Source: an uncultured Gammaproteobacteria bacterium | GTDB taxonomy: Bacteria; Patescibacteriota; Microgenomatia; Levybacterales; UBA12049 | Assembly (NCBI GenBank): GCA_964537895.1 | Contig: CAZIDK010000002.1 | Span: 82,684 to 146,683, forward strand | DNA: 64,000 bases | Direction of reading: 5' to 3' | In this document: positions 3,347-24,737 of the stretch, one piece after another | Position numbering within the stretch: position 1 is the stretch's first letter | Layout of the letters: each line of letters opens with the position of its first letter | Program-made: the position numbers and the translations under genes | The notes under the pieces: model-generated | Told to the model about the DNA's origin: nothing | Database searches by the model: none | The model's input: the letters and a program-made list of their open reading frames with translations, nothing else

Positions 3347-4087
3347 ATGGGCGAAAAAACAGGACATAGTCCTTCACGCAGAGAAATTCCTGCACCAATG
3401 AAGATGGATTTCAAAGATTTTGTGCAAGGAATGAATGCTTTAGGAGATCCAAGAGGCATTTTTGTCGTAGACGAAGACAAATTATTCGTCGCAAGAAGAC
3501 CGGAAACAGTAGTTCCGGGACAAGAATATAGTGTTACCAGACAATATTACAGACCATCGGACAATTTTTCCGCTCACGATCTGAAGGCCGAAATTGAACT
3601 TATTTTTGACGGTAAATCCCCGGCTCGGCTAAAACATGTTCTGTTGGAAGCTAAAAACGAGAGAGACCTCTTCAGCATTAGAGTAGGAGATGGAATAGAA
3701 ATACTCGCTGGAGTAGCAGGTTCCACGCTGGATATTAAATACAAGCCTACGGGAGAATTAGAGAGTGTTGTAATAGCCGGGCCAAACGGAGATCATCAGA
3801 AGCGTAAGTTCACCTGGCAAGCTTTAGAGAAAATGCGGATGGCAGGGGAAGAAACAGCTGCTATTTCAATTATTGCCCGTTCGGATTTTCAAAGAGCGTC
3901 TGTACCGCTTAAAATAGACCCGCATTTTTCTGAGCTGGTTTTAGTTAGTGACTTAGTGAGTAATCCTATGACCAGTAATACAAGACTTGATAGTCCTTGG
4001 ATAAATGCGAATTGGCAAGAATTGCTTCGAATTGACTGGAAACATGGTTTTAACCCCGTTAGTATTCGTGACGCCGTAAGGTTGTAA
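3347..4087 (+). CDS. Hypothetical protein
   Basis: 246 aa ORF with typical coding composition. No recognised motifs. Confidence 0.45.
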   Translation: MGEKTGHSPSRREIPAPMKMDFKDFVQGMNALGDPRGIFVVDEDKLFVARRPETVVPGQEYSVTRQYYRPSDNFSAHDLKAEIELIFDGKSPARLKHVLLEAKNERDLFSIRVGDGIEILAGVAGSTLDIKYKPTGELESVVIAGPNGDHQKRKFTWQALEKMRMAGEETAAISIIARSDFQRASVPLKIDPHFSELVLVSDLVSNPMTSNTRLDSPWINANWQELLRIDWKHGFNPVSIRDAVRL

Positions 4088-4127: not shown

Positions 4128-5291
4128 ATGAAGCTTCCTATTAAGTATATAGCCATAATAGCTTCTTTTTTAATATTAAATTTCTTATTCATAAAAAACT
4201 CATATGCAGTTTACGACCCAACATCCAAAACCAACAATATTGTGGGAATTCACATTTTATTTCCCAGCGAACTGGCAGAAGCTGCAAAATTAGTTAATTC
4301 TACGGGCGGAGATTGGGGCTACGTTACAATTCCAATTCAGGCATCAGACAAAGACTTAGTAAAATGGCAGGGTTTTATGGATGATAGCCGAAAATTTCAC
4401 TTAATTCCCATTATAAGACTTGCTACTAGCGGAGATTATTTTAACACTGTATCTTGGTCTAAGCCTACGGATAGTGATGTTTTAGATTTTGCCAATTTTT
4501 TAAACGCTCTTAATTGGCCTACCAAAAATAGGTATGTTGTGATTTATAACGAACCAAACAGGGGTGATGAATGGGGCGGAGCTCCCGATCCTGCGGGGTA
4601 CGCGGAAATATTAAGTTATGCCGCTGACGTTTTTAAGCAAAGAAGCGATGAGTTTTTTATTATTTCCGCAGGACTTGATAATGCGTCGGCTAATATTGCG
4701 GGACAATCGATAAACGAATACTCTTTTATAAGACAAGTGAATAACGCAGTGCCCGGAGTGTTTGGGAAAATTGACGGCCTGGCCAGTCATTCGTATCCAA
4801 ATCCCGGGTTTTCAGAGCCTCCTTCGGCATACGGATATCAAGGAATAGCCAGCTTTAAGTACGAACAGAGTCTGGTGCAAAGCTTGGAAGGCAAACTTCT
4901 GCCGGTTTTTATTACGGAAACGGGGTGGACGGATACTCAAATTCCGGAATCTGTTCAATCGGAATACTACAGGAGCGCATTTACCTCGATTTGGAACGAC
5001 AAAAATGTTATTGCGGTTACTCCTTTTTTGCTTCGGGCAGGAACGGGTCCTTTCGCCCAATTTTCTTTTATCAAAGACGAGCAGGAAAAACGAAATAAGT
5101 ATAAAACGCTACAAAATTTGCAAAAAAACAAAGGAGAGCCGGTACTAAACGAATACTCATTAACCAAGGGTTCGAACGCTGTAGAAAACGACTTTCCATT
5201 AGACAGGTTTACCAAAAGTATAAAGCAGAATTACACGGCGACTGTTTCAAAGGCAGCAAAAAATTTTATGAAATGGCTTCTAAACATTTAG
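4128..5291 (+). CDS. Secreted glycoside hydrolase, clan GH-A-like (TIM-barrel retaining glycosidase)
   Basis: N-terminal signal or TM anchor. Has an acid/base-type NEP motif (VVIYNEPNRGDEWGG) and a nucleophile-type TE-G motif (VFITETGWTD) at the expected spacing. Confidence 0.45.
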   Translation: MKLPIKYIAIIASFLILNFLFIKNSYAVYDPTSKTNNIVGIHILFPSELAEAAKLVNSTGGDWGYVTIPIQASDKDLVKWQGFMDDSRKFHLIPIIRLATSGDYFNTVSWSKPTDSDVLDFANFLNALNWPTKNRYVVIYNEPNRGDEWGGAPDPAGYAEILSYAADVFKQRSDEFFIISAGLDNASANIAGQSINEYSFIRQVNNAVPGVFGKIDGLASHSYPNPGFSEPPSAYGYQGIASFKYEQSLVQSLEGKLLPVFITETGWTDTQIPESVQSEYYRSAFTSIWNDKNVIAVTPFLLRAGTGPFAQFSFIKDEQEKRNKYKTLQNLQKNKGEPVLNEYSLTKGSNAVENDFPLDRFTKSIKQNYTATVSKAAKNFMKWLLNI

Positions 5292-5308
5292 GATTTGTGC
5301 TATAATTT

Positions 5309-5881
5309 TTGTCTGTCCCCTATTCCGGAAAAAATCAAATGAAAAATTATTTAAATATGGAAAGTTTAGAAATAGACAAGCAAACTTTCCAAAGCTTAAC
5401 GCACGGAAGTTTAATGGTTGAAGAAATAATTGAATTAATCAGGTTTTTTTTGGAAGAGAACCCTAATGCGGAGTACAGCCTTGTAATTGGTACTGATTCA
5501 CACGAAAAAAACGGAACCCCAAACGGCACTCCCAAGAAAATAAACTTAGTAACGGCCGTTTTAATTCATAGAAAAGGGTTTGGCGGAAAATACTTTTGGA
5601 TTAGGAAGGAAGTTGGCAACATTTATTCGTTAAGAGACAAGATTTACGCTGAAACCATCACGTCTTTAAATTTTGCCGGCGCTTTTGTCCCCCTTCTTAA
5701 AAAAGGCTTAAATGGACACTCGCCTAATTATAATTTGGAAATTCATGTTGATGTAGGAGAACACGGCGATACTCGGGACATGATAAAAGAGGTTGTCGGA
5801 ATGGTTACGGGCAATGGTTTTGTAGCTAAGACTAAGCCCGACGCATACGGGGCGTCTTACGTTGCAGATAAACATACCTGA
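5309..5881 (+). CDS. DUF458 / YkuK-like RNase H-fold protein
   Basis: Motifs LVIGTDSH...VTAVLIHRKG...LEIHVDVGEHGDT are typical of this family. Confidence 0.45.
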   Translation: MSVPYSGKNQMKNYLNMESLEIDKQTFQSLTHGSLMVEEIIELIRFFLEENPNAEYSLVIGTDSHEKNGTPNGTPKKINLVTAVLIHRKGFGGKYFWIRKEVGNIYSLRDKIYAETITSLNFAGAFVPLLKKGLNGHSPNYNLEIHVDVGEHGDTRDMIKEVVGMVTGNGFVAKTKPDAYGASYVADKHT

Positions 5882-5904
5882 ACTTAGGAATCAGCAACTA
5901 GCCT

Positions 5905-5939
5905 CTAGCAACTAGTTCGAACTGATGGCTAATTGCTAG
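5905..5939. promoter_or_regulatory. Nested palindrome in the DUF458 / HExxH intergenic region
   Basis: Outer arms CTAGCAA/TTGCTAG enclose the perfect 10 bp palindrome AGTTCGAACT. Confidence 0.3.
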
Positions 5940-5956
5940 TAGCTAAATGCTAATTT

Positions 5957-6349
5957 ATGAAGAGTCAAAAACTGGAATGGGAAGAAGCAAACGAAGTTAA
6001 AAAAGATATTGAAAATATAGTTACCGTCTTAGGTTTTTCTCATATAAATTCTGCTAGAATCTTTTGCTACAGAACAAACGGTTCAAAATCAAGATCATAC
6101 GCCAGAATTTGGGCATTTCCTAAAATTTTTCAAACGGCTTTAAAAACAGAACCGGCTTATGTAATTGAAGTTTTGGCTAAATATTTTGATAAACTGGACA
6201 CTGATAAACAAAAACAAGTTTTAATTCATGAACTATTGCATATTCCCAAGAATTTTTCAGGTGCTCTGCTTCCCCATAGAGGCAGAAATAGGCATTTAGA
6301 GAAAAATGCTTCGCAGCTATTCAAAGATTACAAAAAATTAGCAAAATAA
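5957..6349 (+). CDS. Small HExxH metallohydrolase-like protein (possibly YgjP/DUF45-like)
   Basis: Motif VLIHELLHIP with a downstream His (LLPHRG). Confidence 0.35.
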   Translation: MKSQKLEWEEANEVKKDIENIVTVLGFSHINSARIFCYRTNGSKSRSYARIWAFPKIFQTALKTEPAYVIEVLAKYFDKLDTDKQKQVLIHELLHIPKNFSGALLPHRGRNRHLEKNASQLFKDYKKLAK

Positions 6350-6351
6350 AT

Positions 6352-7044
6352 ATGATAACCATAATCCACGGCGACGACGTCGCAAGCTCAAGAAATTACT
6401 ACGTAGACAAACGGCAGGCATCTCAAAGCCCGGTAATTTTAGATGGCGGTAAGTTTAGCCTTTCGGATTTAATGCAGAGTTTGGAAGGCGGGTCTTTATT
6501 TAATGAAGAAAAAAATATTTTTATTGAGAACTTTTTTTCATCCAAGAAAGCCAACACCAACTTCAAAGAAATCGTTATCTACATTGAAGAACAGGCTTCT
6601 AAAGCAAGTATATTCTTTTGGGAAAATTCCGAATTATCAAAAACAGAATTAACGACTTTTAAAAAAACTACAGCAAAATTATTTAAAATTCCTCAAAATT
6701 TGTTCGGATTTTTAGATAACATAAAACCCGGAAATACAGACAGTATTAAACAATTTCATGAACTGCTTAATCAAACAGCCGAAGAATTAATATTCTTTAT
6801 GATTGTAAGACAATTTAGACTTCTCCTGGCAGTATCGGATCCTGATGCAGAAAATGCAATAGATGAGGTTAAAAGACTTGCTCCCTGGCAAACGGGTAAA
6901 CTTAAAAGTCAGGCAAAGCTTTTCGGGCCGGAAAAATTAATAGCAATATACAAAAGACTGCACGAAATAGATTCCGACAGCAAGACCGGGAAATCGGCAA
7001 CTTCGCTAACCCAAACCATTGACTTTTTCCTCCTCGATTTATAA
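6352..7044 (+). CDS. holA: DNA polymerase III delta subunit-like (short form)
   Basis: N-terminus ITIIHGDD and a C-terminal helical region resemble delta. At 230 aa it is short for the family. Confidence 0.4.
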   Translation: MITIIHGDDVASSRNYYVDKRQASQSPVILDGGKFSLSDLMQSLEGGSLFNEEKNIFIENFFSSKKANTNFKEIVIYIEEQASKASIFFWENSELSKTELTTFKKTTAKLFKIPQNLFGFLDNIKPGNTDSIKQFHELLNQTAEELIFFMIVRQFRLLLAVSDPDAENAIDEVKRLAPWQTGKLKSQAKLFGPEKLIAIYKRLHEIDSDSKTGKSATSLTQTIDFFLLDL

Positions 7045-7053
7045 GATATTGTA

Positions 7054-8436
7054 ATGAATATCGATACAGGTATTTTTAAATCATACGATATCCGCGCAAT
7101 TTACCCCGACCAAATAAACGAACAAAACATAGCTGAAATCATAAAAGCTATTTATAAATTTTTTACCACAAAAATAACTAAAGAAAATTTTACAGTGGCT
7201 TTGGCAAGAGATATGCGTATTTCCTCTCCCGCTTTCTACAAAATTGCAATTGAAACATTAGTATCCATGGGAGCGAACGTTATAGATATGGGTCTTATGT
7301 CTACCCCTACGTTTTATTTTGCTGTATTTAATTATAAATATGATTGCGGAATTCAGATTACTGCTTCTCACAATCCGAAAGAATACAACGGAGCAAAGTT
7401 TGTTATGTATGGACCAAAAGGACTTATCAAAATCGGTAAACAAACCGGCATGGAAGATATAAAAAATTATGCAATTTCGGGCGTTGATTTGCCAACAGAT
7501 AAAAAAGGCACCGTAACTGTAAAAACTCATGTCCTAGAAGACGAGGTTGAGAATGCCGCTAAAATTTTGGGAAATCCGCAAATTAAAAAATTTAAAATAG
7601 TAGCAGATCCTGCAAATGCGATGGGCGGAACGTATATTGATGCGTTCGTAGAAAAATATCCTACGGATTTGGTACGGATGAATTTTGAACTGGATGGCAC
7701 ATTTCCGGTTCACCAGCCGGATCCATTTCAACCAAAAAATCTTGTTGATTTGCAAAAAAGAGTCTTGGAAGAAAAAGCGGATTTAGGCCTTGCCCCCGAC
7801 GGAGACGGAGACAGACTTTTCTTTATCGACGAAAAAGGACAAGCTGTTCCGCCAACAATAATTACAGCTCTTGTAGCCAGAGAACTATTTAAAGAATATC
7901 CGGGATCAATGGTGCTTTTTGATATTAGGTATATCCTTACTCCCAAAAAAATTATTGAAGAAAATGGAGGGAAATATGGAATAACAAAAGTAGGACATGC
8001 GTTTATTACGGAACAAATGGGGAAAACAGGGGCTATATTTGCGGGAGAATCTTCTGCTCATTATTATTTTAAGGCAACCGGTAATGCCGAATCTCAAGTA
8101 ACAATAATGTTAGTCGTACTAAAAGTTTTAGGTGAATTAGGCAAACCATTTTCCGAAGTTGTAAAGGATTTACAAAAAAGCTTTGAATCGGGTGAAATTA
8201 ATTTTAAAGTCTCTAATGCAAAAGATATTATTGAGTCAATTAAAAACGACTACAAAGACGGAGAATTATCGGAACTGGATGGAATTGCAATTTCTTATCC
8301 GACATGGAGATTGAGTGTCAGAACTTCAAATACGGAACCTCTTTTAAGATTAAACGTTGAGGGTTATAATAAGGACGAAATGCAAAAACACAGAGACGAA
8401 TTAATTGATACAATCAAAGCATTGGGACATGAATGA
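7054..8436 (+). CDS. Phosphomannomutase/phosphoglucomutase (alpha-D-phosphohexomutase)
   Basis: Active-site Ser loop TASHNP and the metal-binding motif DGDGDR are both present. Confidence 0.8.
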   Translation: MNIDTGIFKSYDIRAIYPDQINEQNIAEIIKAIYKFFTTKITKENFTVALARDMRISSPAFYKIAIETLVSMGANVIDMGLMSTPTFYFAVFNYKYDCGIQITASHNPKEYNGAKFVMYGPKGLIKIGKQTGMEDIKNYAISGVDLPTDKKGTVTVKTHVLEDEVENAAKILGNPQIKKFKIVADPANAMGGTYIDAFVEKYPTDLVRMNFELDGTFPVHQPDPFQPKNLVDLQKRVLEEKADLGLAPDGDGDRLFFIDEKGQAVPPTIITALVARELFKEYPGSMVLFDIRYILTPKKIIEENGGKYGITKVGHAFITEQMGKTGAIFAGESSAHYYFKATGNAESQVTIMLVVLKVLGELGKPFSEVVKDLQKSFESGEINFKVSNAKDIIESIKNDYKDGELSELDGIAISYPTWRLSVRTSNTEPLLRLNVEGYNKDEMQKHRDELIDTIKALGHE

Positions 8437-8866
8437 TTTAAATAATTTAGATAAAAACTCTTTTAACAACTCTCCTTTTGTCAAAAAAATAGAAAAACCC
8501 TGGGGATATGAAATCCACTGGGTTCCCGAAAATAAACCTTATATGGGAAAGATTCTCCACATAAATAAAGGCAAGAGGCTTTCTCTTCAGGTTCATGATA
8601 AAAAACAGGAGAGCTGGTTTATTCTTAGTGGACGTGCTAAGGTTGTTTGGGATAATGATCAAGGCGAACTTATCGAAACAGAACTTGAACAGGGAAAAGG
8701 ATATAGTTGTCAAATTAGCCAAAGACACAGGTTAGCGGGAATAACGGATTGCGACGTACTTGAAGTTTCAACTCCGGAAATTGGTACGACCTACAGGCTT
8801 GAAGACGACTATAAAAGACCCGACGAAACAGAGGAATTAAGGAAAGAGGAAAGGAAAGATTTATGA
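8405..8866 (+). CDS. Cupin-domain sugar isomerase, mannose-6-phosphate isomerase type II cupin-like
   Basis: KPWGYE...RLSLQVHDKKQESWFILSGRAKV...EDDYKRPDE. The start overlaps the PMM 3' end; an alternative ATG lies at 8426. Confidence 0.65.
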   Translation: MIQSKHWDMNDLNNLDKNSFNNSPFVKKIEKPWGYEIHWVPENKPYMGKILHINKGKRLSLQVHDKKQESWFILSGRAKVVWDNDQGELIETELEQGKGYSCQISQRHRLAGITDCDVLEVSTPEIGTTYRLEDDYKRPDETEELRKEERKDL

Positions 8867-9480
8867 CCAAAGATTTCACCAGCAAGCATTACGCAGTCAG
8901 AACTTACGAGAAAATGAAAGAGGTTCTAATGGATCCTACTGCTCCTGGTCCGGAAGTTCAATACCACATGGTTCGCGGAGGAACCAATCAGCGTAATATT
9001 ACAATTTGGGAACCAGGGAAAGTTGGAAAAGAATACATTAAAACTTACGGACATTATCATATAGGCAAATTAGACGAAACGTATTGGACAATTTTTGGAG
9101 AAGGTGTTGTGCTTGTTCAAAAAAGAGCCGCAGACGCAAACGGTAATCCTGTTGATGACGAAATTGAGCAAGCTTATGCTGTTCATGTTAAGCCTGGAGA
9201 CAGTCTTTTCATACCTTCCGAATGGGGCCATTTAGTGGCAAATATTTCAGATACTTATTTTGTAACCGCCGATGACTCCCCTGTTAACTTTGATGAGGAA
9301 AATCCGGTATCCTTTCCGGGACACGCAGATTACGAGGCCGTAAAGAAAATGCAGGGGTTTTGTTATTATATAGTTGAAGAAAATGGTAAGCCAGCTCTTG
9401 TAAAAAACCCAAGGTATAAGAGAATTCCTCAAATTGAAATCATAGAAGCAAGCGAATATCCTCTCAAAAAAAGTAAGTAA
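8863..9480 (+). CDS. pgiA: Cupin-type glucose-6-phosphate isomerase (archaeal-type cPGI)
   Basis: Motifs PGKVGKEY..TYGHYH, E..Y and C-terminal VEENGKPALVKNPRYK parallel the Pyrococcus cupin PGI. Confidence 0.75.
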   Translation: MTKDFTSKHYAVRTYEKMKEVLMDPTAPGPEVQYHMVRGGTNQRNITIWEPGKVGKEYIKTYGHYHIGKLDETYWTIFGEGVVLVQKRAADANGNPVDDEIEQAYAVHVKPGDSLFIPSEWGHLVANISDTYFVTADDSPVNFDEENPVSFPGHADYEAVKKMQGFCYYIVEENGKPALVKNPRYKRIPQIEIIEASEYPLKKSK

Positions 9481-9526
9481 GCGAAAACTGCTTGATTTAT
9501 TTATCAATCCCTTTCATAATCATATT

Positions 9527-11800
9527 ATGACTGCCAAATCGAGGTTTGTTGCGTGGTTTTCCGAAGTGGATAAAGAGGACGTAGCGTTAGTCGGAGGGAA
9601 AGGTGCAAATTTAGGTGAAATGACAAAAGCTAAATTTCCAGTCCCCAACGGTTTTATTATAACATCCGAGGCTTACTACGCTTTTATAAGAGAAAACAAT
9701 TTCTCTGTAAAAATAAAGCACCTTTTAGAGACTGCAAATTTTGATAAACCCGATTCCTTATCGCAGGTTTCAACGCATATAAAAAAACTGATAATTGATG
9801 GTAAATTATCAAAGGAATTGGTCGGAGACGTTTTTAGAGCTTACAGTAAGCTTGGGACAGTTTTTGACGACACCCTCGTCGCGGTAAGATCTTCAGCAAC
9901 TGCCGAGGACCTTGCTAATGCCTCATTTGCCGGACAGCAGGAAACATTTTTGAATGTTAAAGGCGAAGCGGTGCTTTTGGAAAAAATTAAAGAAGGCTGG
10001 GCTTCGCTTTTTAATGCCCGGGCACTTTTTTACAGGCACGAGCAGCATTTTGACAATTTAAAAATTGGAATTGCGCTGGTTGTACAGAGAATGGTTGAAT
10101 CTGAAAAATCAGGAATAATGTTTACACTGGATCCTGTTACAAATGATAAATCAAAAATTGTAATTGAGGCAATTTACGGATTAGGGGAATTAATTGTGCA
10201 GGGGCAAGAAAATCCCGACCACTATGAAGTGTTAAAAAACGACTTTTCGATTATTTCTAAAAAAGCGGTATTGCAGAAAAAAATGCTTAAAAAAGTTGGT
10301 GCTAAAAATAAAGAGATTAAACTTACTAAATCCCAAGGCGGACACCAAAAATTGTCGGACAAAGAAATTATCGGATTGGCAAAGTTAGGCGAAAGATTGG
10401 AAAAACATTATTATTTTCCCCAAGATATTGAATGGGCAATTGAAAAAAATAAACTTTTTATTGTTCAAACAAGAGCAGTTACAACCGTAAATGAAAAAAA
10501 GCAAACAAAAAAAGCTATTGATGAAATCGCCAACACATCAAGAATACCGATATTAAAAGGCGATCCGGCAAGTCCGGGAATAGCCGCAGGTCCTGTCAGA
10601 ATTATTAAAAGTGCTAAGGAAATAGGCAAAGTAATGCCCGGAGAAGTTTTAGTTGCGCCTCAAACAAATCCTGATTATGTTCCGGCGATGAAAAAGGCCG
10701 TTGCCATTGTTACGGATAGCGGGGGAAGAACTTCACACGCGGCAATAGTCTCAAGGGAACTCGGAATTCCGGCAATTGTCGGTACCCAAAAGGCAACAAA
10801 AATTTTAAAACAAGGAGAGGTAGTAACCGTAAACGGCACAAAAGGCGAGATTTATAAAGGCGGACACTTAACTTCAAATGTAAACATAAACACAATTAAT
10901 CCCGAAGATTTTATAAAAACCGCTACTAAAGTTTACGTAAACTTGGCGGAACCGGAACTTGCGGAAAAAATCGCACAGCAAAATGTAGACGGAGTAGGAC
11001 TTTTAAGAGCCGAGTTTATGATGGCCGGTATTGGAATTCATCCTAAAAAATTGATCAGGGAGGGAAAAAAACAGCTATTTATCGAAAAACTAGCTAACGA
11101 CTTGGAAATGTTTTGCAAGCCTTTTAACCCGAGGCCGGTTGTTTATAGAGCCTCCGACTTTAAAACAAATGAATACAGATCGCTGATTGGAGGTAGGGAC
11201 TTCGAGCCCGAAGAACCAAATCCGATGCTAGGCTATAGGGGTGTATACCGGTATATTCATGATCCGGAAGTTTTTGAACTGGAGCTTGAAGCGATTAAAA
11301 TTGTCAGGAATAAAAAAGGATACAGAAATTTATGGCTGATGCTTCCTTTTGTAAGAACGGTCAAGGAACTTGAGGAAGTTAAGAAGATTATCAATATTTC
11401 CGGATTGCAGCGTTCCCCTACTTTTAAACTCTGGATGATGGTAGAAATTCCTTCTAACGTGATACTGCTTGAAGATTTCATTAAAGCGGGCATTGACGGA
11501 GTTTCAATCGGCTCTAATGATTTGACAATGCTGCTTTTAGGAACAGACCGGGATAACAGCGAAGTCGCATCGGAATTTAGCGAACTTAATCCTGCTGTGA
11601 TGTGGGCTTTTGAGCGCGTTATAAAAACTGCCCGCAAAACCGGAATTACCGCTTCTATTTGCGGGCAGGCAGTGTCAACATACCCTTTGCTTGTTGAAAA
11701 ATTAGTTTCTTGGGGAGTGACAAGTGTATCCATATCTCCGGACGCAGCCGACAGTACGAGAAAATTAATTTCCGAAACTGAGAAAAAAGTGATAAATTAA
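9527..11800 (+). CDS. ppsA: Phosphoenolpyruvate synthase (pyruvate, water dikinase)
   Basis: N-terminal ATP-grasp motif GGKGANLGEM, phosphohistidine domain GGRTSHAAIVSRELGIPAIVG, and a C-terminal PEP-utilising TIM barrel. 757 aa. Confidence 0.8.
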   Translation: MTAKSRFVAWFSEVDKEDVALVGGKGANLGEMTKAKFPVPNGFIITSEAYYAFIRENNFSVKIKHLLETANFDKPDSLSQVSTHIKKLIIDGKLSKELVGDVFRAYSKLGTVFDDTLVAVRSSATAEDLANASFAGQQETFLNVKGEAVLLEKIKEGWASLFNARALFYRHEQHFDNLKIGIALVVQRMVESEKSGIMFTLDPVTNDKSKIVIEAIYGLGELIVQGQENPDHYEVLKNDFSIISKKAVLQKKMLKKVGAKNKEIKLTKSQGGHQKLSDKEIIGLAKLGERLEKHYYFPQDIEWAIEKNKLFIVQTRAVTTVNEKKQTKKAIDEIANTSRIPILKGDPASPGIAAGPVRIIKSAKEIGKVMPGEVLVAPQTNPDYVPAMKKAVAIVTDSGGRTSHAAIVSRELGIPAIVGTQKATKILKQGEVVTVNGTKGEIYKGGHLTSNVNINTINPEDFIKTATKVYVNLAEPELAEKIAQQNVDGVGLLRAEFMMAGIGIHPKKLIREGKKQLFIEKLANDLEMFCKPFNPRPVVYRASDFKTNEYRSLIGGRDFEPEEPNPMLGYRGVYRYIHDPEVFELELEAIKIVRNKKGYRNLWLMLPFVRTVKELEEVKKIINISGLQRSPTFKLWMMVEIPSNVILLEDFIKAGIDGVSIGSNDLTMLLLGTDRDNSEVASEFSELNPAVMWAFERVIKTARKTGITASICGQAVSTYPLLVEKLVSWGVTSVSISPDAADSTRKLISETEKKVIN

Positions 11801-11803
11801 ATT

Positions 11804-13063
11804 ATGGCCAAAATAAAACAAATAGCAGCCCGGGAAATACTTAATTCAAAAGGCATGCCTACGGTTGAAACAACGGTAATATTGAATGACGGTAAAATTG
11901 GTACTGCGTCTACTCCTACGGGCACATCCGTAGGCAATTACGAAGCCAGCGAGCTAAGGGACAGAGATGATAAGCATTTCCAAGGCAATGGCGTTTTAAA
12001 ACCAATCGCCAATATCGAAGATCTTATTGCTCCTAATATTCTTGGTATGGAAGCTACAAAACAGCACGAAATAGACAAAAAAATGATTGAACTGGACGGA
12101 ACCCAGAATAAAGGCAGGCTCGGTTCAAATGCCATGCTTTCCGTATCCATGGCTGTTGCAAAAGCCGCAGCCAAAAGCGCGTTACTGCCTACTTTCTTGT
12201 ATTTACGGGAGTTTATTAATAAGGAGAACACTTCCGTTAAAATTCCGACCCCCGCTTTTAATATTTTAAACGGCGGAAAACATGCGGGAGACAATACGGA
12301 TTTTCAGGAATATATGGTTGTACCCGCTTCGTCGAAAACATATAGCGAGTCTTTAGACATGGCAGTTGTTTTATATAATTCTCTTAGGAAAATTTTAGAA
12401 CAGAACAACTTCTCTACTCTGGTTGGGGACGAAGGCGGATTTGCACCTAAGCTTCAGGCAAATAGAGATGGTTTGGATGTAATGAAACAGGCAATTGATG
12501 CAACTCCGTTTAGATACGGATTTGATGTATTTTTAGGCCTGGACGTTGCCGCTACCAACTTTTTTCAGGGAGGGAAGTACCACATTAAAGATAAAACTAT
12601 GCCACTTTCTTCGGATGCTCTTATTGAATATTACGAGGAGCTAAACAAAGAGTTTCATCTGCTTTATTTGGAAGATCCTTTAGCCCAAGATGATTGGAAC
12701 GGCTGGTCTAAAATATACAGCTTAATATCACAGCAGACATTAATAGTCGGCGATGACCTAACCGCTACAAATCCCTATAGACTCCAGATGGCTCTTGATA
12801 AAAAAACCATAACAGGAATTGTTATTAAACCAAACCAAATAGGAACGGTAATCGAGGCAATGGCTGTTGTTGAGGTTGCAAGACAAGCAGGAATTAAGAT
12901 TATTGTTTCACACCGAAGCGGAGAAACAAACGATGATTTTATAGCCGATTTTGCTGTTGCAGTATCTGCGGATTACGTAAAATTTGGAGCGCCGGTTAGG
13001 GGCGAAAGAGTCGCTAAGTACAACCGGTTGCTGGAAATTGAAAGAGAAATTAAATTGCTATAG
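11804..13063 (+). CDS. eno: Enolase
   Basis: N-terminus IKQIAAREILNSKGMPTVE; catalytic motifs conserved. Confidence 0.9.
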   Translation: MAKIKQIAAREILNSKGMPTVETTVILNDGKIGTASTPTGTSVGNYEASELRDRDDKHFQGNGVLKPIANIEDLIAPNILGMEATKQHEIDKKMIELDGTQNKGRLGSNAMLSVSMAVAKAAAKSALLPTFLYLREFINKENTSVKIPTPAFNILNGGKHAGDNTDFQEYMVVPASSKTYSESLDMAVVLYNSLRKILEQNNFSTLVGDEGGFAPKLQANRDGLDVMKQAIDATPFRYGFDVFLGLDVAATNFFQGGKYHIKDKTMPLSSDALIEYYEELNKEFHLLYLEDPLAQDDWNGWSKIYSLISQQTLIVGDDLTATNPYRLQMALDKKTITGIVIKPNQIGTVIEAMAVVEVARQAGIKIIVSHRSGETNDDFIADFAVAVSADYVKFGAPVRGERVAKYNRLLEIEREIKLL

Positions 13064-13759
13064 ATGGAAAAGTACCACAAACTCCCCCTTAGGTTTATTT
13101 TTATTAAAATGCAGTAGAGCTTCGGATATTTTTTCTTTCCTTACCTCCTCATAAATTTTCGTTAGTTCCCTGGCTGTAACTATATCAATGTCGCCGAAAA
13201 TTTCCTTTAATTCTTCTAGTGTTTTAATCAATCTAAACGGTGATTCAAAAAATATTACCGTTTGCTTAACAGCTTCCACTGCAATTTTAATATTTTTAAA
13301 TAAATCAGTTTTGTGGCCGGGTTTTTTAGGCAGAAAACCAATAAACATAAATTTGTCCGTTGGCAGTCCGGAACTAACAAGCGCCGTGATAACAGAAGAT
13401 GGTCCGGGAATTGCTTCTACTTTAATTTTCTCTTTAACACATTCTCTCACTAATTTAAAGCCCGGATCGGAAATGGTCGGTGTTCCCGCGTCCGAAACTA
13501 AAGCAAAATTAAAATCTTTTTTAAGTAGGTCGATTATTTCCGGTATTCTTTTGGGTTCGTTTTCTTCATAGTAAGATACCAGTTTTGCTTTATTTTTAAA
13601 CTCGGGAAATTTCTTTGCAATTGACCTAAGAAGGGTAGACGTTGTTCTTGTATCTTCACACAAAATAAAATCTACCAAGTCAAGGATATCAACAGCTCTT
13701 AAGCTAATATCTTGTAAATTCCCTATAGGAGTTGCAACAACAAAAAGAGTACCATTCAT
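13058..13759 (-). CDS. rsmI: 16S rRNA (cytidine1402-2'-O)-methyltransferase
   Basis: Tetrapyrrole-methylase fold; N-terminus LFVVATPIGNLQDISLRAVDIL. Confidence 0.75.
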   Translation of the reverse strand: MNGTLFVVATPIGNLQDISLRAVDILDLVDFILCEDTRTTSTLLRSIAKKFPEFKNKAKLVSYYEENEPKRIPEIIDLLKKDFNFALVSDAGTPTISDPGFKLVRECVKEKIKVEAIPGPSSVITALVSSGLPTDKFMFIGFLPKKPGHKTDLFKNIKIAVEAVKQTVIFFESPFRLIKTLEELKEIFGDIDIVTARELTKIYEEVRKEKISEALLHFNKNKPKGEFVVLFHL

Positions 13760-13810
13760 TAAGTTGCATTATATCAAAACACACTCTTTGTACTATATTT
13801 TATGATTTTC

Positions 13811-13819
13811 TGGTATAAT
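13811..13819 (+). promoter_or_regulatory. Extended -10 (TGGTATAAT) for dedA, giving a near-leaderless transcript
   Basis: TGnTATAAT ends 6 nt before the ATG at 13826. Confidence 0.35.
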
Positions 13820-13825
13820 TTTTAA

Positions 13826-14524
13826 ATGGAAATTTTCAGTACGCTTTTGCACTTTGACGAAGCACTTGTCACAATTATTAACCTCTTTGGACCCTTAACT
13901 TATGTAATTCTTTTTGCAATTGTATTTGCTGAAACAGGATTAGTAATTACTCCATTCTTACCAGGCGATTCTCTTCTTTTTGCAGTTGGAACTTTGGCCG
14001 GGGGAAATTACTTAAATATCTGGATTGTTTACCCTACGCTTCTTGCAGCGGCAATTATTGGAGACACGGTTAATTACTGGCTTGGACATCATTTAGGAAG
14101 CCGTGTATTTACAAAGGAAAATTCAAGAATCTTCAAAAAGTCATATTTAGAAAAAACTAGTGAGTTTTATGCAAAACACGGTGGAAAGACAATAATACTT
14201 GCCCGCTTTGTTCCTTTGATTAGGACCTTTGCTCCTTTTGTCGCAGGCGTTGGTAAAATGCATTATAAAACCTTCCTCTCATATAATGTAGTAGGAGCTT
14301 TTTTATGGGTTACCAGCTTAACTTTTGCGGGTTTCTTCTTTGGACAAATGCCATTAATTAGAGAGAACTTTGAGTATGCAGTAATTGGTATTATCCTTAT
14401 TTCTCTTCTTCCGGTTGTAATTGAATTTGTTAAACATAAGCTGTCAAAGAAAACTATTAAAGAGAAAGAAACTTCATACCAGGAAATCCAGGAGATGTTT
14501 AAGAAAGAGCATCTAAACGATTAA
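13826..14524 (+). CDS. DedA/SNARE-associated family membrane protein
   Basis: Motif ETGLVITPFLPGDSLLFAVG; polytopic. Confidence 0.75.
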   Translation: MEIFSTLLHFDEALVTIINLFGPLTYVILFAIVFAETGLVITPFLPGDSLLFAVGTLAGGNYLNIWIVYPTLLAAAIIGDTVNYWLGHHLGSRVFTKENSRIFKKSYLEKTSEFYAKHGGKTIILARFVPLIRTFAPFVAGVGKMHYKTFLSYNVVGAFLWVTSLTFAGFFFGQMPLIRENFEYAVIGIILISLLPVVIEFVKHKLSKKTIKEKETSYQEIQEMFKKEHLND

Positions 14525-21267: not shown

Positions 21268-21340
21268 AAACTTAACGAATCTACGGGTATCCTAGCAAAT
21301 TGTTGAATTATAGTCAATGCTCTGGTATGATTTTTTTGCT

Positions 21341-23194
21341 ATGAGTAACCTGGAAATAGTAAAGCTTTTTAGAAATGTTGCAGCCGCTTACTCAATAAAA
21401 GATGAAAAAAAATTCCGGTTCCAAATTATTGCATATCAAAAAGCCGCGGACACCGTTTCTAATTTAACTTCGGAAATTATTGACTTCTATAAAGATAATA
21501 AACTGAACACTCTTCCCGGTATTGGAGTAACCATAAAATCTCATCTTGAAGAACTATTTAAAACAAATAAGGTAAAGCAGTTTGAATGGGCTTTGCACGG
21601 AATTCCCGAAGCTGTTTTTCCCTTATTAGATATTCCCTCATTTGGTCCCAAAAAAGTATATAGGCTGGTCAAAGAATTTCATCTTAAAAACTCTAAAACC
21701 GTGCTTGAAGATCTTGAAAAAATTGCAAAGCAGGGGAAAATTGCCAGATTAGCTAGTTTTGGAGATAAATCTCAAAGTGACATTCTTAGAGCAATTGCCG
21801 AGTTCAGACTTGGAAAAGGAAAAACAACCAGAATGACACTCCCATATGCAATGGAGGTAGCCGATAAAGTAGTTTCTTATTTAAAGCAGTCAAAAGACGT
21901 AGTTCGCGCAGAACCTTTGGGAAGTTTAAGACGCAGAATGCCCACAGTCGGCGACATAGATATAGCCGTAGCCACAGATAACCCAAAAGGCGTAATTGAA
22001 TATTTTACCTCATATCCGTATAAAGAACGCATTATTGAAAAAGGCGATACAACCTCCTCAATCTTAGTTTCCGGAGGAAAGCAGGTGGACCTTATGACAC
22101 AGCCCCCGGAGGCTTTTGGGTCGCTTTTACAGCACTTTACAGGCAGCAAAAACCATAACATTCACTTAAGGGAATTCGCTCTCAAGAAAGGATTATCTCT
22201 ATCGGAATATGGCATCAGACGGAAAACGCCCGCCCCGCTTCGCTTGGCGAGGCCGGAGGAAAATGCCCGCCCTGAGCGAGGCCCCGCACCGTCTGGTGCA
22301 GGGCGAGGCCGAAGGGGGAAATGGAAAATGGAAAATTTTTCTACAGAAGAACAATTTTATCATGCTGTCGGCCTAGAGTGGATTCCGCCGGAAATAAGAG
22401 AGAATACGGGCGAGATTGAGTTGGCTTCTCAAAAAAAACTCCCTAAGCTCGTTGAGTTACCGGATATCAAGGGGGACCTGCATATTCACACAAGCTTTCC
22501 CATAGAACCAAGCCATGATTTGGGACAAAACACTATTTTAGAAATGCTGGAAAAAGCAAGACTTTTAAAATATGCGTATTTAGGATTTTCCGAACACAAT
22601 CCCAGTATTTCTAAACATAATTCAAATCAAACTTACTCAATTTTGGCAAGAAGAAATGAAGAAATTGAACATATTTTATTGAGTAATAAAGATGTTCGTA
22701 TATTAAAATTACTCGAAATTGATATATTACCTCACGGAAATCTTGCTATAGATGATAAATCTCTGAATCTCTTAGATGGCGCTATAGTTTCTATTCATAG
22801 CACATTCAACATGAACAAGACCGACATGACGGAAAGAGTTTTAAAGGGTTTGTCGCATAAAAAGGCTAAGATACTCGCTCACCCAACGGGCAGAATGTTA
22901 AATGAAAGACAAGGTTACGAATTGGATTGGAGCAAAATATTTGAATTTTGCAAAAAAAATAATAAGGCCTTGGAAATTAACAGCTGGCCGGGCAGATTAG
23001 ATTTACCCGATATGGTAATTAGAATGGCTGTAGAAGCCAAGGTTAAAATGGTAATAAATACAGACAGTCACGCGGTTTCCCAAATGGAGCTTATGAAGTA
23101 CGGCATTGCAATGGCAAGGAGAGGCTGGGCAACAAAAGATGACATACTCAATACTTTATCGTATAATGAATTCTCCGAGTGGTTAAGAAAATAA
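21341..23194 (+). CDS. polX: DNA polymerase X family protein with C-terminal PHP phosphoesterase domain
   Basis: N-terminal pol-beta-like HhH and palm domains, then LHIHTSFP and later His/Asp PHP motifs. An alternative start lies at 21317. Contains a GC-rich insertion that stays in frame at 22224-22318. Confidence 0.75.
   Translation: MSNLEIVKLFRNVAAAYSIKDEKKFRFQIIAYQKAADTVSNLTSEIIDFYKDNKLNTLPGIGVTIKSHLEELFKTNKVKQFEWALHGIPEAVFPLLDIPSFGPKKVYRLVKEFHLKNSKTVLEDLEKIAKQGKIARLASFGDKSQSDILRAIAEFRLGKGKTTRMTLPYAMEVADKVVSYLKQSKDVVRAEPLGSLRRRMPTVGDIDIAVATDNPKGVIEYFTSYPYKERIIEKGDTTSSILVSGGKQVDLMTQPPEAFGSLLQHFTGSKNHNIHLREFALKKGLSLSEYGIRRKTPAPLRLARPEENARPERGPAPSGAGRGRRGKWKMENFSTEEQFYHAVGLEWIPPEIRENTGEIELASQKKLPKLVELPDIKGDLHIHTSFPIEPSHDLGQNTILEMLEKARLLKYAYLGFSEHNPSISKHNSNQTYSILARRNEEIEHILLSNKDVRILKLLEIDILPHGNLAIDDKSLNLLDGAIVSIHSTFNMNKTDMTERVLKGLSHKKAKILAHPTGRMLNERQGYELDWSKIFEFCKKNNKALEINSWPGRLDLPDMVIRMAVEAKVKMVINTDSHAVSQMELMKYGIAMARRGWATKDDILNTLSYNEFSEWLRK
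22224..22318. repeat. GC-rich (about 70% GC) insertion that stays in frame inside polX
   Basis: Three gcgaggcc units and an imperfect palindrome gccctg...cagggc. Left-flank ggaaaacg and an inside-edge ggaaaatg are direct repeats; three ggaaaat heptamers lie on the right. Adds about 25 aa (PAPLRLARPEENARPERGPAPSGAGRGRRG) in the linker between the EYG and TEE motifs. Confidence 0.5.
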
Positions 23195-24661: not shown

Positions 24662-24728
24662 CATCCTGAGCTTATCGCACATTCGACATAGCTCAGTGCG
24701 ATACTGAGTTTAGCGAATGTATCGAAGG
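24662..24728. repeat. Nested-hairpin repeat element, copy 1 (REP/MITE-like or small structured RNA)
   Basis: cctgagcttatcgcACATTCGacatagCTCAGTgcgatACTGAGtttagCGAATGTatcgaagg. A central perfect 6 bp hairpin sits inside a 7 bp outer stem. The reverse complement of 35461-35530 matches it at about 85% identity. Confidence 0.6.
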
Positions 24729-24737
24729 ATAAATAAT

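What the first reader, a model, noticed from the sequence alone, without database searches (positions are those of the whole stretch)
7054..9480. Archaeal-type cupin phosphoglucose isomerase next to a second cupin isomerase and phosphomannomutase
The 205 aa protein at 8863-9480 carries the hallmark motifs of the cupin-type PGI family (GKVGKE, T.GH.H...E..Y, VEENG...NPR.K). That family is known mainly from Thermococcales and has sporadic bacterial members. It is translationally coupled to a mannose-6-phosphate-isomerase-like cupin and a PMM/PGM, and is followed by PEP synthase and enolase. This suggests a compact hexose-phosphate interconversion and gluconeogenic module, with the canonical bacterial SIS-type PGI possibly replaced by a horizontally acquired archaeal enzyme.
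Basis: partly seen in the sequence, partly recalled or inferred. Interest (0 to 1): 0.5.

Follow-up and report, generated by a model that had tools for sequence, protein, structure and literature searches.

The report
Cupin-type glucose-phosphate isomerase in a CPR bacterium
This is a genuine cupin-type ("archaeal-type") phosphoglucose isomerase gene sitting beside a mannose-phosphate-isomerase-like cupin and a phosphomannomutase in an uncultured Levybacteria-like (Candidate Phyla Radiation) genome, but the enzyme is an old, widespread, already reported feature of that bacterial radiation and not a fresh import from archaea.

Summary
Window 7054-9480 encodes a PMM/PGM, a 145-aa PMI-like cupin (true start ATG 8429, not TTG 8405) and a 205-aa cupin PGI, joined by 8-nt and 4-nt overlaps and followed by PEP synthase and enolase.

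The 205-aa protein scores 71.5 bits on PF06560 (cutoff 20.7). It keeps all four metal ligands of P. furiosus PGI (H64, H66, E72, H123) plus Y34, T47, T61, Y74, H154 and Y157. Its AF2 model (pLDDT 92) matches only cupin PGIs strongly (E~1e-13, TM 0.62-0.71; next folds E~1e-5).

The "horizontally acquired archaeal enzyme" reading is only partly right. The gene belongs to a large clade (>2,250 90%-identity clusters) whose named members are CPR. The clade tree follows CPR lineages, GC/GC3 is native, and identity to the archaeal enzymes is only 27-28%. Any transfer was ancient.

Jaffe et al. 2020 already reported PF06560 PGIs across the CPR. Replacement of a SIS-type pgi cannot be tested from 64 kb; none is in the window.

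The modest new point is a recurrent cPGI-PMI gene pairing (37 of 77 loci). Novelty: already known. Interest: low.

The parts
7054..8436 (+). alpha-D-phosphohexomutase (PMM/PGM family, 460 aa); sugar specificity unresolved
   Evidence: Four PGM_PMM domains. Motifs TASHNP(103), DGDGDR(249), GESSAH(331) and RTSNTEP(423) are present. The best NCBIfam match is PMM/PGM NF007088 at 388 bits, below its 618-bit equivalog cutoff. It is syntenic two or three genes upstream of cPGI in 11 loci (8 at -2, 3 at -3; the cluster spans 12 loci).
8429..8866 (+). small single-domain cupin (145 aa), homologous to the PMI domain of type II GMP/PMI enzymes; probable phosphomannose isomerase
   Evidence: PF01050 39.5 bits against 23.6. 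3,773 homologous clusters of 142-145 aa, named 'cupin' or 'mannose-6-phosphate isomerase(-like)'. Invariant PWG, S52, Q54, H56, E61, H100, R101. AF2 pLDDT 84. It is the commonest neighbour of cPGI (30 of 77 loci). There is no specific solved-structure match.
8429..8436 (+). 8-nt overlap between the PMM stop (TGA 8434-8436) and the small-cupin start (ATG 8429)
   Evidence: Sequence read directly. The start was chosen from homologue lengths and the gene calls in L083/L084. Translational coupling is inferred, not shown.
8863..9480 (+). cupin-type phosphoglucose isomerase (cPGI, PF06560), 205 aa, CPR clade
   Evidence: PF06560 71.5 bits. PDB sequence hits are only cPGIs or derivatives. Metal ligands H64/H66/E72/H123 and Y34, T47, T61, Y74, H154, Y157 are conserved. 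AF2 pLDDT 92.1, pTM 0.89. The Foldseek top 12 are all cPGIs or derivatives, E~1e-13, TM 0.62-0.71.
8863..8866 (+). ATGA start/stop overlap between the small cupin and cPGI, preceded by a purine-rich SD-like stretch (GGAAAGAGGAAAGGAAAG)
   Evidence: Sequence read directly. Overlaps or gaps of 10 nt or less recur at this junction in most related loci that have the pair.
9527..11800 (+). phosphoenolpyruvate synthase (pyruvate, water dikinase), 757 aa
   Evidence: NF005057 925 bits against 598 and TIGR01418 890 bits against 740. A 46-nt gap follows cPGI with no terminator above chance. Adjacency is conserved only in Levybacteria-type loci.
11804..13063 (+). enolase, 419 aa
   Evidence: TIGR01060 494 bits against 300. 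Enolase_N and Enolase_C domains.

Best explanation

It belongs to a large clade that is specific to the Candidate Phyla Radiation (Patescibacteria). That clade has been inherited mostly vertically within the radiation. The host here is a Levybacteria-like organism.

It is co-expressed, probably by translational coupling, with a small cupin homologous to type II phosphomannose isomerase and with a PMM/PGM. Together these three genes form a hexose-phosphate hub: G6P <-> F6P <-> M6P, and G6P/M6P <-> G1P/M1P. The hub supplies nucleotide-sugar precursors for surface glycans, and for glycogen in other lineages, and it connects to the trunk of glycolysis/gluconeogenesis.

Shown: family membership, active-site conservation, fold, distribution, synteny and native composition.

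Inferred: the catalytic activities, co-translation, the direction of flux, and the absence of a second PGI.
For: Family and active site:
- PF06560 at 71.5 bits against a 20.7 cutoff.
- Only cPGIs or derivatives among significant PDB sequence hits.
- The metal ligands named in PMC6627849 (His88, His90, Glu97, His136) are invariant in 52 diverse family members and in 77 CPR sequences.
- H154 and Y157 (Pf His158 and Tyr160) are invariant in the CPR clade.

Fold:
- AF2 pLDDT 92.1.
- The Foldseek top 12 are all Pf/Tl cPGIs or derivatives, E~1e-13, TM 0.62-0.71. The next folds come at E~1e-5, TM 0.3-0.4.

Distribution and inheritance:
- 2,253 close clusters, the named ones Levy-/Curtissbacteria/Patescibacteria.
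- 107 GTDB species hits across Microgenomates and Parcubacteria lineages.
- The NJ tree groups labelled phyla coherently in one clade on a long branch from the archaeal enzymes.
- cPGI identity to the nearest relatives (79-82%) exceeds that of PEPS (67-73%), enolase (65-68%), PMM (58-60%, 28% in L004) and holA (47-50%) in the same loci.
- GC 0.400 and GC3 0.320 are like the neighbours.

Context:
- A PMI-type gene lies within four genes in 37 of 77 loci. In 30 it belongs to the PF01050-containing cluster (standalone cupin, GMP-fused, cytidylyltransferase-fused, or GMP alone). In 7 it is a type-I-PMI-like protein.
- Other recurrent neighbours are HAD-type PMM, glycogen synthase and GH57.
- A sister cluster sits beside G6P dehydrogenase, a ROK kinase and glycogen genes.
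- The window also holds a glycan island with GT2-PMT-like fusions that could consume mannose donors.

Literature:
- Jaffe et al. 2020 report PF06560 PGIs in the CPR, with only about 2% of genomes carrying more than one PGI type.
Against: - No CPR cPGI has been characterised biochemically, as far as the held literature shows.
- Identity to characterised enzymes is only 27-28%.
- Pf Tyr152, implicated with His158 in proton transfer, is an invariant Ser139 in the CPR clade.
- An extra loop of about 11 residues (141-151, pLDDT ~54) and a one-residue insertion (A155) lie next to the active site. Specificity could therefore differ.
- The small cupin's PMI role rests on a modest Pfam score and the ligand pattern. 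Its model matches only generic cupins.
- The promoter/terminator scan was not above chance, so the operon structure is inferred from spacing only.
Confidence: 0.75

Rival explanations
1. Recent horizontal acquisition from archaea. A Thermococcales-like cPGI was imported into this bacterium and displaced its SIS-type pgi.
For: The family was first described in Thermococcales and is described as typically archaeal with restricted transfers to bacteria (PMC12525153). Jaffe et al. find CPR sequences as a sibling clade to archaeal ones and discuss acquisition of variant enzymes. No SIS PGI occurs in the window.
Against: - Only 27-28% identity to Pf/Tl enzymes.
- The gene is part of a clade spanning many CPR phyla, whose tree follows those phyla.
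- The closest outgroup clusters (P0143, P0129) are bacterial and share CPR-like contexts.
- GC/GC3 is native.
- The eight-gene synteny is conserved among Levybacteria-type genomes.
- Any inter-domain transfer must predate CPR diversification, and its direction is unresolved.
Confidence: 0.05
2. The CPR clade is a cupin sugar-phosphate isomerase with a different or broader specificity. It might be a bifunctional PGI/PMI or a PMI, with the small upstream cupin doing something else, such as acting on a nucleotide sugar.
For: - Tyr152 to Ser139, the extra active-site-proximal loop and the A155 insertion are fixed in all 77 CPR sequences.
- There is a persistent association with mannose-pathway genes.
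- The small cupin's model resembles CapF-type and other generic cupins as well as anything else.
Against: - Every metal-binding and conserved substrate-contact residue of PfPGI is retained except Tyr152.
- The nearest structural neighbours are PGIs by eight orders of magnitude in E-value, and lyxose/mannose isomerase cupins score TM about 0.4.
- In Parcubacteria-type loci the partner is an unambiguous PF01050 PMI domain at 70-174 bits, so a separate PMI is already provided.
- One sister locus pairs the enzyme with G6P dehydrogenase and a ROK kinase.
Confidence: 0.15
3. The cPGI is redundant. The genome also carries a conventional SIS-type PGI or PGI/PMI elsewhere, and the cupin enzyme serves only the mannose/glycan branch.
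For: - Only 64 kb plus about 9 kb of an unknown-sized genome could be inspected.
- Jaffe et al. count only about 15 genomes, mostly Nealsonbacteria, as cupin-only. About 2% of genomes carry more than one form, which leaves room for dual carriers among Microgenomates.
Against: The same paper reports that very few CPR genomes have more than one PGI form. No SIS PGI was detectable with E. coli Pgi in about 1.1 Mb of DNA flanking cPGI genes in 80 CPR genomes, though this is weak evidence.
Confidence: 0.25

Closest known systems
Pyrococcus furiosus / Thermococcus litoralis cupin-type phosphoglucose isomerase (PfPGI, TlPGI; PDB 1X7N, 1QXJ, 1J3P; Pfam PF06560)
   Same: - Single cupin barrel of about 190-205 aa.
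- His-His-Glu-His metal site (H64/H66/E72/H123 = H88/H90/E97/H136).
- Conserved T-x-G-H-x-H...E-x-Y and G-H-(x)-D-Y motifs, and the C-terminal EENG...NPR motif.
- Best structural match: TM 0.62-0.71, E~1e-13.
   Different: - 27-28% identity.
- N-terminus shorter by about 24 residues.
- Tyr152 replaced by an invariant Ser139.
- An extra loop of about 11 residues before the GH(A)DY motif, and a one-residue insertion within it.
- H-x5-E spacing and P-S instead of P-P before the third His.
- Mesophilic, low-GC bacterial host.
- Gene paired with a PMI-like cupin.
CPR/Patescibacteria PF06560 proteins reported by Jaffe et al. 2020 (BMC Biol 18:69, PMC7304191)
   Same: The same Pfam family in the same radiation. 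That paper notes three alternative PGI forms scattered across the CPR, few genomes with more than one form, and CPR cupin sequences forming a sibling clade to the archaeal ones. This protein (71.5 bits) passes their 30.2-bit threshold.
   Different: The paper highlights about 15 cupin-only genomes, mostly Nealsonbacteria. Here the clade is seen to be large in Microgenomates (Levy-, Curtiss-, Roizman-, Daviesbacteria) and Parcubacteria lineages. The recurrent pairing with PMI-type genes is not mentioned in the passages I read.
Type II phosphomannose isomerase domain of bifunctional GDP-mannose pyrophosphorylase/PMI (Pfam PF01050; TIGR01479), as comparator for the 145-aa cupin
   Same: PF01050 match over residues 27-138. 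The PWG motif and the invariant Q54/H56/E61/H100 pattern are conserved. It clusters by BLAST with bona fide GMP-PMI fusions that sit next to cPGI in Parcubacteria loci.
   Different: It is standalone, with no nucleotidyltransferase or beta-helix domains. The score is modest (39.5 bits, against 70-174 bits for the Parcubacteria versions). It has a charged C-terminal tail. No solved structure matches it specifically.
SIS-fold phosphoglucose isomerases (PF00342) and archaeal/bacterial bifunctional PGI/PMI (TIGR02128)
   Same: The same reaction (EC 5.3.1.9) and the same metabolic position.
   Different: An unrelated fold and a metal-independent mechanism. No such gene was detected in the window or its extension.

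Membership tests
Cupin-type PGI (cPGI, Pfam PF06560) | Sequence matches the family profile above the curated threshold | tested here: met
   PF06560 E 7.1e-20, 71.5 bits against gathering score 20.7. Protein residues 41-176 match profile positions 49-171 of 182.
Cupin-type PGI (cPGI, Pfam PF06560) | Four metal ligands His88, His90, Glu97, His136 (PfPGI numbering; PMC6627849) | tested here: met
   H64, H66, E72 and H123 align to them. They are invariant in 52 diverse members and in 77 CPR sequences.
Cupin-type PGI (cPGI, Pfam PF06560) | Proton-transfer residues His158 and Tyr152 (as cited in PMC6627849), and other conserved active-site residues (Tyr52, Thr71, Thr85, Tyr99, Tyr160; roles recalled from the PfPGI structural literature) | tested here: inconclusive
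   Y34, T47, T61, Y74, H154 and Y157 are conserved. Tyr152 is replaced by Ser139, invariant in the CPR clade, and a one-residue insertion separates H154 from D156-Y157.
Cupin-type PGI (cPGI, Pfam PF06560) | Literal signature patterns of Hansen et al. 2005 (TX3PX3GXEX3TXGHXHX6-11EXY and PPX3HX3N; recalled from memory because the paper is not held) | tested here: inconclusive
   The query reads T47-x3-P-x3-G-x-E-x3-T-x-G-H-x-H-x5-E-x-Y and P-S-x3-H-x3-N. That is one residue short in the spacer and has Ser for the second Pro (sequence). The pattern itself could not be verified against the source.
Cupin-type PGI (cPGI, Pfam PF06560) | Single-domain cupin fold closest to solved cPGI structures | tested here: met
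   AF2 pLDDT 92.1, pTM 0.89. Foldseek ranks 1-12 are all Pf/Tl PGI entries or derivatives, E 8e-14 to 5e-12, TM 0.62-0.71. Rank 13 onward are at E of 1e-5 or weaker.
Cupin-type PGI (cPGI, Pfam PF06560) | Metal-dependent G6P <-> F6P isomerase activity | not testable with these tools
   This needs an enzyme assay or complementation. It is supported only indirectly by gene context.
Type II PMI cupin domain (PF01050), for the 145-aa protein | Profile match above the curated threshold | tested here: met
   PF01050 E 7.4e-10, 39.5 bits against 23.6. All 120 listed homologues carry PF01050.
Type II PMI cupin domain (PF01050), for the 145-aa protein | Equivalog-level match to bifunctional GMP/PMI (TIGR01479) | tested here: not met
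   38 bits against a cutoff of 372.95. Only the C-terminal domain (profile positions 344-462) is present. It is therefore a homologue of the PMI domain, not a member of the bifunctional enzyme family.
Type II PMI cupin domain (PF01050), for the 145-aa protein | Gln/His/Glu/His metal-ligand pattern of phosphomannose isomerases (ligand set recalled from the Candida albicans PMI literature) | tested here: met
   Q54, H56, E61 and H100 are invariant in 31 sequences that include 30-33%-identity members.
Type II PMI cupin domain (PF01050), for the 145-aa protein | Specific structural similarity to a solved PMI, or demonstrated M6P <-> F6P activity | tested here: inconclusive
   phmmer against the PDB finds nothing below E 0.2. 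Foldseek gives only generic cupins (CapF, oxalate decarboxylase, quercetinase) at E~1e-5. Activity is not testable here.
alpha-D-phosphohexomutase superfamily (PMM/PGM), for the 460-aa protein | Four-domain architecture with the phosphoserine loop, metal loop, sugar loop and phosphate loop | tested here: met
   PF02878, PF02879, PF02880 and PF00408 all pass their cutoffs. TASHNP, DGDGDR, GESSAH and RTSNTEP are present. No NCBIfam equivalog cutoff is reached, the best being 388 against 618, so substrate preference is open.
Genome lacking a conventional PGI (the 'replacement' claim) | No PF00342 or TIGR02128 gene anywhere in the genome | not testable with these tools
   None in the 64-kb window (tblastn/phmmer with E. 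coli Pgi; Pfam of 48 of the 56 predicted ORFs of 70 aa or more), and none in the extra 9 kb on the left.

The most novel reading that the evidence does not exclude
The CPR-wide cPGI clade, with its fixed Tyr152-to-Ser change and extra active-site loop, together with its habitual PMI-type partner, is a dedicated two-cupin isomerase cassette that is the only route between G6P, F6P and M6P in many ultra-small genomes. In addition, its deep, radiation-wide, lineage-congruent distribution would mean that cupin PGI is ancestral in this bacterial radiation and not an archaea-to-bacteria import. That would bear on claims that cPGI traces to LUCA (Weiss et al. 2016, as cited in PMC12525153).
Probability: 0.2. 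Interest if true: 0.45.

Novelty: already known. Interest (0 to 1): 0.2.

Why it matters
The finding mainly confirms published knowledge. CPR bacteria patch upper glycolysis with alternative enzyme forms, including the cupin PGI first found in hyperthermophilic archaea.

It is useful as a well-documented example. The active site is intact, the model is high confidence, and the synteny is conserved.

It also corrects the textbook impression that cupin PGIs are essentially archaeal, because thousands of sequence clusters sit in Patescibacteria.

The recurrent cPGI-PMI gene pairing and the clade-specific Tyr152-to-Ser change give concrete and inexpensive biochemical targets. None of this is surprising to a specialist in CPR metabolism.

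Tried and rejected
1. Search for a conventional PGI. tblastn and phmmer with E. coli Pgi (taken from NC_000913) against the window, its ORFs and 80 related loci found nothing. Pfam scans of 48 of the 56 predicted window ORFs showed no PGI or SIS domain. This is uninformative for the whole genome.

2. Contig walking with the look-up of encoding contigs. The right-end gene is not on record. The left end added about 9 kb (UvrA, IMPDH, a recombinase) with no PGI. I abandoned this as inefficient.

3. Jaffe et al. supplements. They hold no per-genome presence/absence table, only HMM thresholds.

4. Hansen et al. 2005 (PMC1063998) is not held. The signature patterns are therefore quoted from memory and flagged as such.

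5. Promoter/terminator scan of 5000-14000. The counts were at chance level (27 against 22.1 ± 4.0 promoter-like sites; 7 against 7.7 ± 3.3 terminator-like sites), so no operon boundaries could be called.

6. Tandem-duplication idea. The two cupins are not detectably related (BLASTP E = 9).

7. Structure-based identification of the small cupin gave only generic cupin hits.

8. The type-I-PMI-like neighbour in Roizmanbacteria loci scores below the Pfam cutoff (PF21621 22.7 against 27) and has no PDB sequence hit. That label is tentative.

9. A family-wide NJ tree of the 50%-identity representatives is star-like and poorly resolved. Cluster names were too sparse to label most clades.

Full report
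**Observation**

- The 460-aa product of 7054-8436 has all four phosphoglucomutase/phosphomannomutase domains. It also has the four loop motifs of the alpha-D-phosphohexomutase superfamily: TASHNP, DGDGDR, GESSAH and RTSNTEP.
- The next ORF is a small cupin matching PF01050, the PMI domain of type II enzymes, at 39.5 bits against a 23.6 cutoff.
- The 205-aa product of 8863-9480 matches Pfam PF06560, the cupin-type glucose-6-phosphate isomerase family. E is 7.1e-20 and the score is 71.5 bits against a cutoff of 20.7.
- Its only significant matches among solved structures are the Pyrococcus furiosus and Thermococcus litoralis cupin PGIs and derivatives of them, E 3e-13 to 1.5e-8. JmjC proteins and calmodulin appear only at E > 0.03.
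- PEP synthase (925 bits against 598) and enolase (494 bits against 300) follow.
- The cupin-cPGI junction is an ATGA overlap behind a purine-rich stretch.
- One correction: homologues of the small cupin are 142-145 aa. Its start is therefore the ATG at 8429, which overlaps the PMM stop codon by 8 nt, and not the TTG at 8405.
- The identical locus was assembled from three separate sequencing runs.

**Is it really a cupin PGI?**

The Mn ligands of PfPGI are His88, His90, Glu97 and His136 (PMC6627849). They align to H64, H66, E72 and H123.
- These are invariant across 52 family members that go down to 31% identity, together with Y34, T47, E57, G63, Y74, Q86, N127, Y157, G165 and N182.
- Within 77 CPR sequences the motif P-G-H-A-D-Y is fixed. 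It contains the counterparts of Pf His158 and Tyr160.
- An AlphaFold2 model built on that alignment has mean pLDDT 92.1 and pTM 0.89. Only the loop at about residues 141-150 is uncertain.
- Foldseek against the PDB returns twelve cupin-PGI entries or derivatives first, at E 8e-14 to 5e-12, TM 0.62-0.71, about 190 aligned columns and 25-28% identity. It then drops eight orders of magnitude to quercetinase, CapF, oxalate oxidase and lyxose isomerases at TM 0.3-0.4.

There are real differences from the archaeal enzymes:
- a shorter N-terminus;
- Pf Tyr152 replaced by an invariant Ser139;
- an extra loop of about 11 residues;
- a one-residue insertion in the GH(A)DY motif.

Tyr152 is cited with His158 as controlling proton exchange. 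For that reason I leave a 15% rival that the specificity or mechanism is modified.

**Whose gene is it, and was it transferred?**

The close-homologue search found 2,253 clusters at 90% identity. The named ones are Candidatus Levybacteria, Curtissbacteria or 'Patescibacteria group', and several sources already call them glucose-6-phosphate isomerase (family) proteins.

A scan of one genome per GTDB species confirmed 107 loci. The 80 best carry titles from Levy-, Curtiss-, Roizman-, Davies-, Moran-, Magasanik-, Falkow-, Nomurabacteria, Paceibacteria and Parcubacteria, or placeholder names.

Evidence on inheritance:
- In an NJ tree these 77 usable sequences form a single tight clade on a long branch from PfPGI and an Aigarchaeota representative. 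Inside the clade the labelled phyla group coherently, and the query sits with Levybacteria next to L005.
- In the closest genomes the whole eight-gene order is conserved: RNaseH-like, metallopeptidase, holA, PMM, cupin, cPGI, ppsA, eno. cPGI is the best-conserved member at 79-82% identity, against 47-73% for its neighbours (PMM only 28% in L004).
- Its GC (0.400) and GC3 (0.320) lie within the range of neighbouring housekeeping genes.
- The nearest outgroup clusters are also bacterial. P0143 has the same small cupin directly upstream, in a RecA/RecX/UbiA context shared with Roizmanbacteria-type loci. P0129 lies between glucose-6-phosphate dehydrogenase and a glycogen synthase/GH57/amylase/ROK-kinase cluster.

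All this argues for long residence and mostly vertical descent inside the CPR. Any exchange with archaea was ancient, and its direction is not resolved by my low-resolution trees.

**Context and likely role**

I clustered the four genes on either side of cPGI in 77 loci.
- The cluster containing the PF01050-type cupin is by far the commonest neighbour. It occurs in 30 loci, 22 times immediately upstream and 5 times immediately downstream. The junction usually has an overlap or a gap of 10 nt or less.
- In Parcubacteria-type loci the partner is an unambiguous PMI domain at 70-174 bits. It can be standalone, fused to a GDP-mannose pyrophosphorylase, or fused to a cytidylyltransferase. Some members of this cluster are GMP proteins without the PMI domain (L040).
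- In seven Roizmanbacteria-type loci a 377-aa protein with a weak type I PMI cupin match sits immediately upstream instead.
- Other recurrent neighbours are a HAD-type phosphomannomutase, glycogen synthase and GH57.
- PMM/PGM, PEP synthase and enolase are neighbours only in the Levybacteria-type subset, in 12, 9 and 9 loci respectively.

I therefore read the conserved functional unit as cPGI plus a PMI, a G6P-F6P-M6P switch, with a mutase feeding nucleotide-sugar synthesis. The window itself carries a low-GC glycan island with Wzy, a flippase, GT4s and three GT2-PMT-like fusion proteins that could use mannose donors.

The link to ppsA-eno is a lineage-specific adjacency. No terminator separates them, but the scan is at chance level. 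Co-transcription and flux direction are inferences.

The small cupin is not a paralogue of cPGI. It keeps an invariant Q54/H56/E61/H100 pattern typical of PMI metal sites. Its model (pLDDT 84) resembles only generic cupins, so its PMI activity is probable but not shown.

**Replacement of the canonical PGI**

No SIS-type PGI or SIS domain is encoded in the window, in about 9 kb further left, or in about 1.1 Mb flanking cPGI genes in 80 CPR genomes. This cannot establish absence from the genome.

Jaffe et al. 2020 report that only about 2% of roughly 1,000 CPR genomes carry more than one of the three PGI forms. They explicitly discuss acquisition of variant forms before or after loss of the ancestral enzyme. 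Replacement is therefore plausible but untested here.

**Comparison with what is known, and novelty**

The protein is a member of the cupin-PGI family by profile, ligands and fold. It deviates at Tyr152 and, literally, from the published signature spacing, which I recalled from memory because the source is not held.

The presence of PF06560 PGIs across the CPR, their sibling relationship to archaeal sequences and the 'alternative enzyme form' idea were published in 2020 (PMC7304191). This protein's 71.5 bits exceeds that study's 30.2-bit threshold. A 2025 review still describes cPGI as typically archaeal with restricted transfers to bacteria (PMC12525153), which the numbers here qualify.

What I did not find in the passages I read is the recurrent cPGI-PMI gene pairing or the clade-specific active-site differences. 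These are minor additions.

**Verdict**

- Novelty is 'already known'.
- Interest is 0.2.

Noticed in passing
window 41409-62200: A low-GC island (gene GC 0.28-0.33, against 0.36-0.41 elsewhere) of surface-glycan genes: Wzy-like polymerase/ligase, a flippase, two GT4s, methyltransferases, PMT-like GT-C proteins, and three large GT2 + PMT_2 fusion proteins (730, 752 and 864 aa). It is a possible consumer of the mannose/glucose donors made by the hexose-phosphate cassette, and its composition suggests a variable or exchanged region.
   Followed up: partly
window 4128-5291 (+): A 387-aa protein with an N-terminal hydrophobic segment and no Pfam hit. It contains 'IYNEPN' and 'ITETGW' motifs reminiscent of clan GH-A glycoside hydrolases (recalled from memory, not tested). 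The flanking ORFs 923-1960 and 3347-4087 also have no Pfam match.
   Followed up: no
window 5309-7044 (+): An RNaseH-like (PF04308) gene, a 'putative phage metallopeptidase' (PF18894) gene and holA (DNA pol III delta) lie directly upstream of the sugar genes with gaps of 2-75 nt. This order is conserved in Levybacteria-type relatives (L001, L002, L004, L005, L029).
   Followed up: partly
window 8405 vs 8429; loci L082-L084: Gene callers disagree on the small cupin's start: 153 aa from TTG 8405 in L082, and 145 aa from ATG 8429 in L083/L084. Homologue lengths (142-145 aa) favour 8429.
   Followed up: yes
window 29961-30752 (+): A GGDEF diguanylate-cyclase domain protein sits between gatB and dnaE, which hints at c-di-GMP signalling in a reduced CPR genome.
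   Followed up: no
window 21317-23194 (+); 24717-26773 (+): A PolX-type polymerase (HHH_8, DNA_pol_B_thumb and a sub-threshold PHP match, 21.6 vs 26.4 bits), and a MurT/GatD pair (peptidoglycan iso-glutamine amidation).
   Followed up: no
L085 1-9600 (left of the window): Just outside the window's left end lie uvrA, an IMPDH-domain gene, several small hypothetical ORFs, a large serine recombinase (Resolvase + Zn_ribbon_recom) and a mechanosensitive-channel gene. This may be an integrated element boundary.
   Followed up: no
L087 6607-15246 (sister cPGI P0129): A more distant bacterial PF06560 protein (224 aa, ~38% identity over the full alignment) is divergently adjacent to glucose-6-phosphate dehydrogenase and followed by glycogen synthase, GH57, GT4, alpha-amylase and a ROK kinase. 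This is independent context support for a G6P-handling role of the family.
   Followed up: partly
loci L006, L007, L008, L012, L014, L018-L020, L023, L025, L045 and others: GTDB representative MAGs titled 'uncultured Gammaproteobacteria / Verrucomicrobiota / Bdellovibrionales / Saccharibacteria' (binchicken and SRP co-assemblies) carry cPGI genes and synteny that nest within CPR clades. The record titles look like unreliable placeholders.
   Followed up: partly
L017 8839-9972 and six similar loci: A 377-aa protein immediately upstream of cPGI in Roizmanbacteria-type genomes has only a sub-threshold match to the type I PMI cupin domain (PF21621, 22.7 against 27 bits) and no PDB sequence hit. 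It may be a divergent type I PMI family that standard annotation misses.
   Followed up: partly
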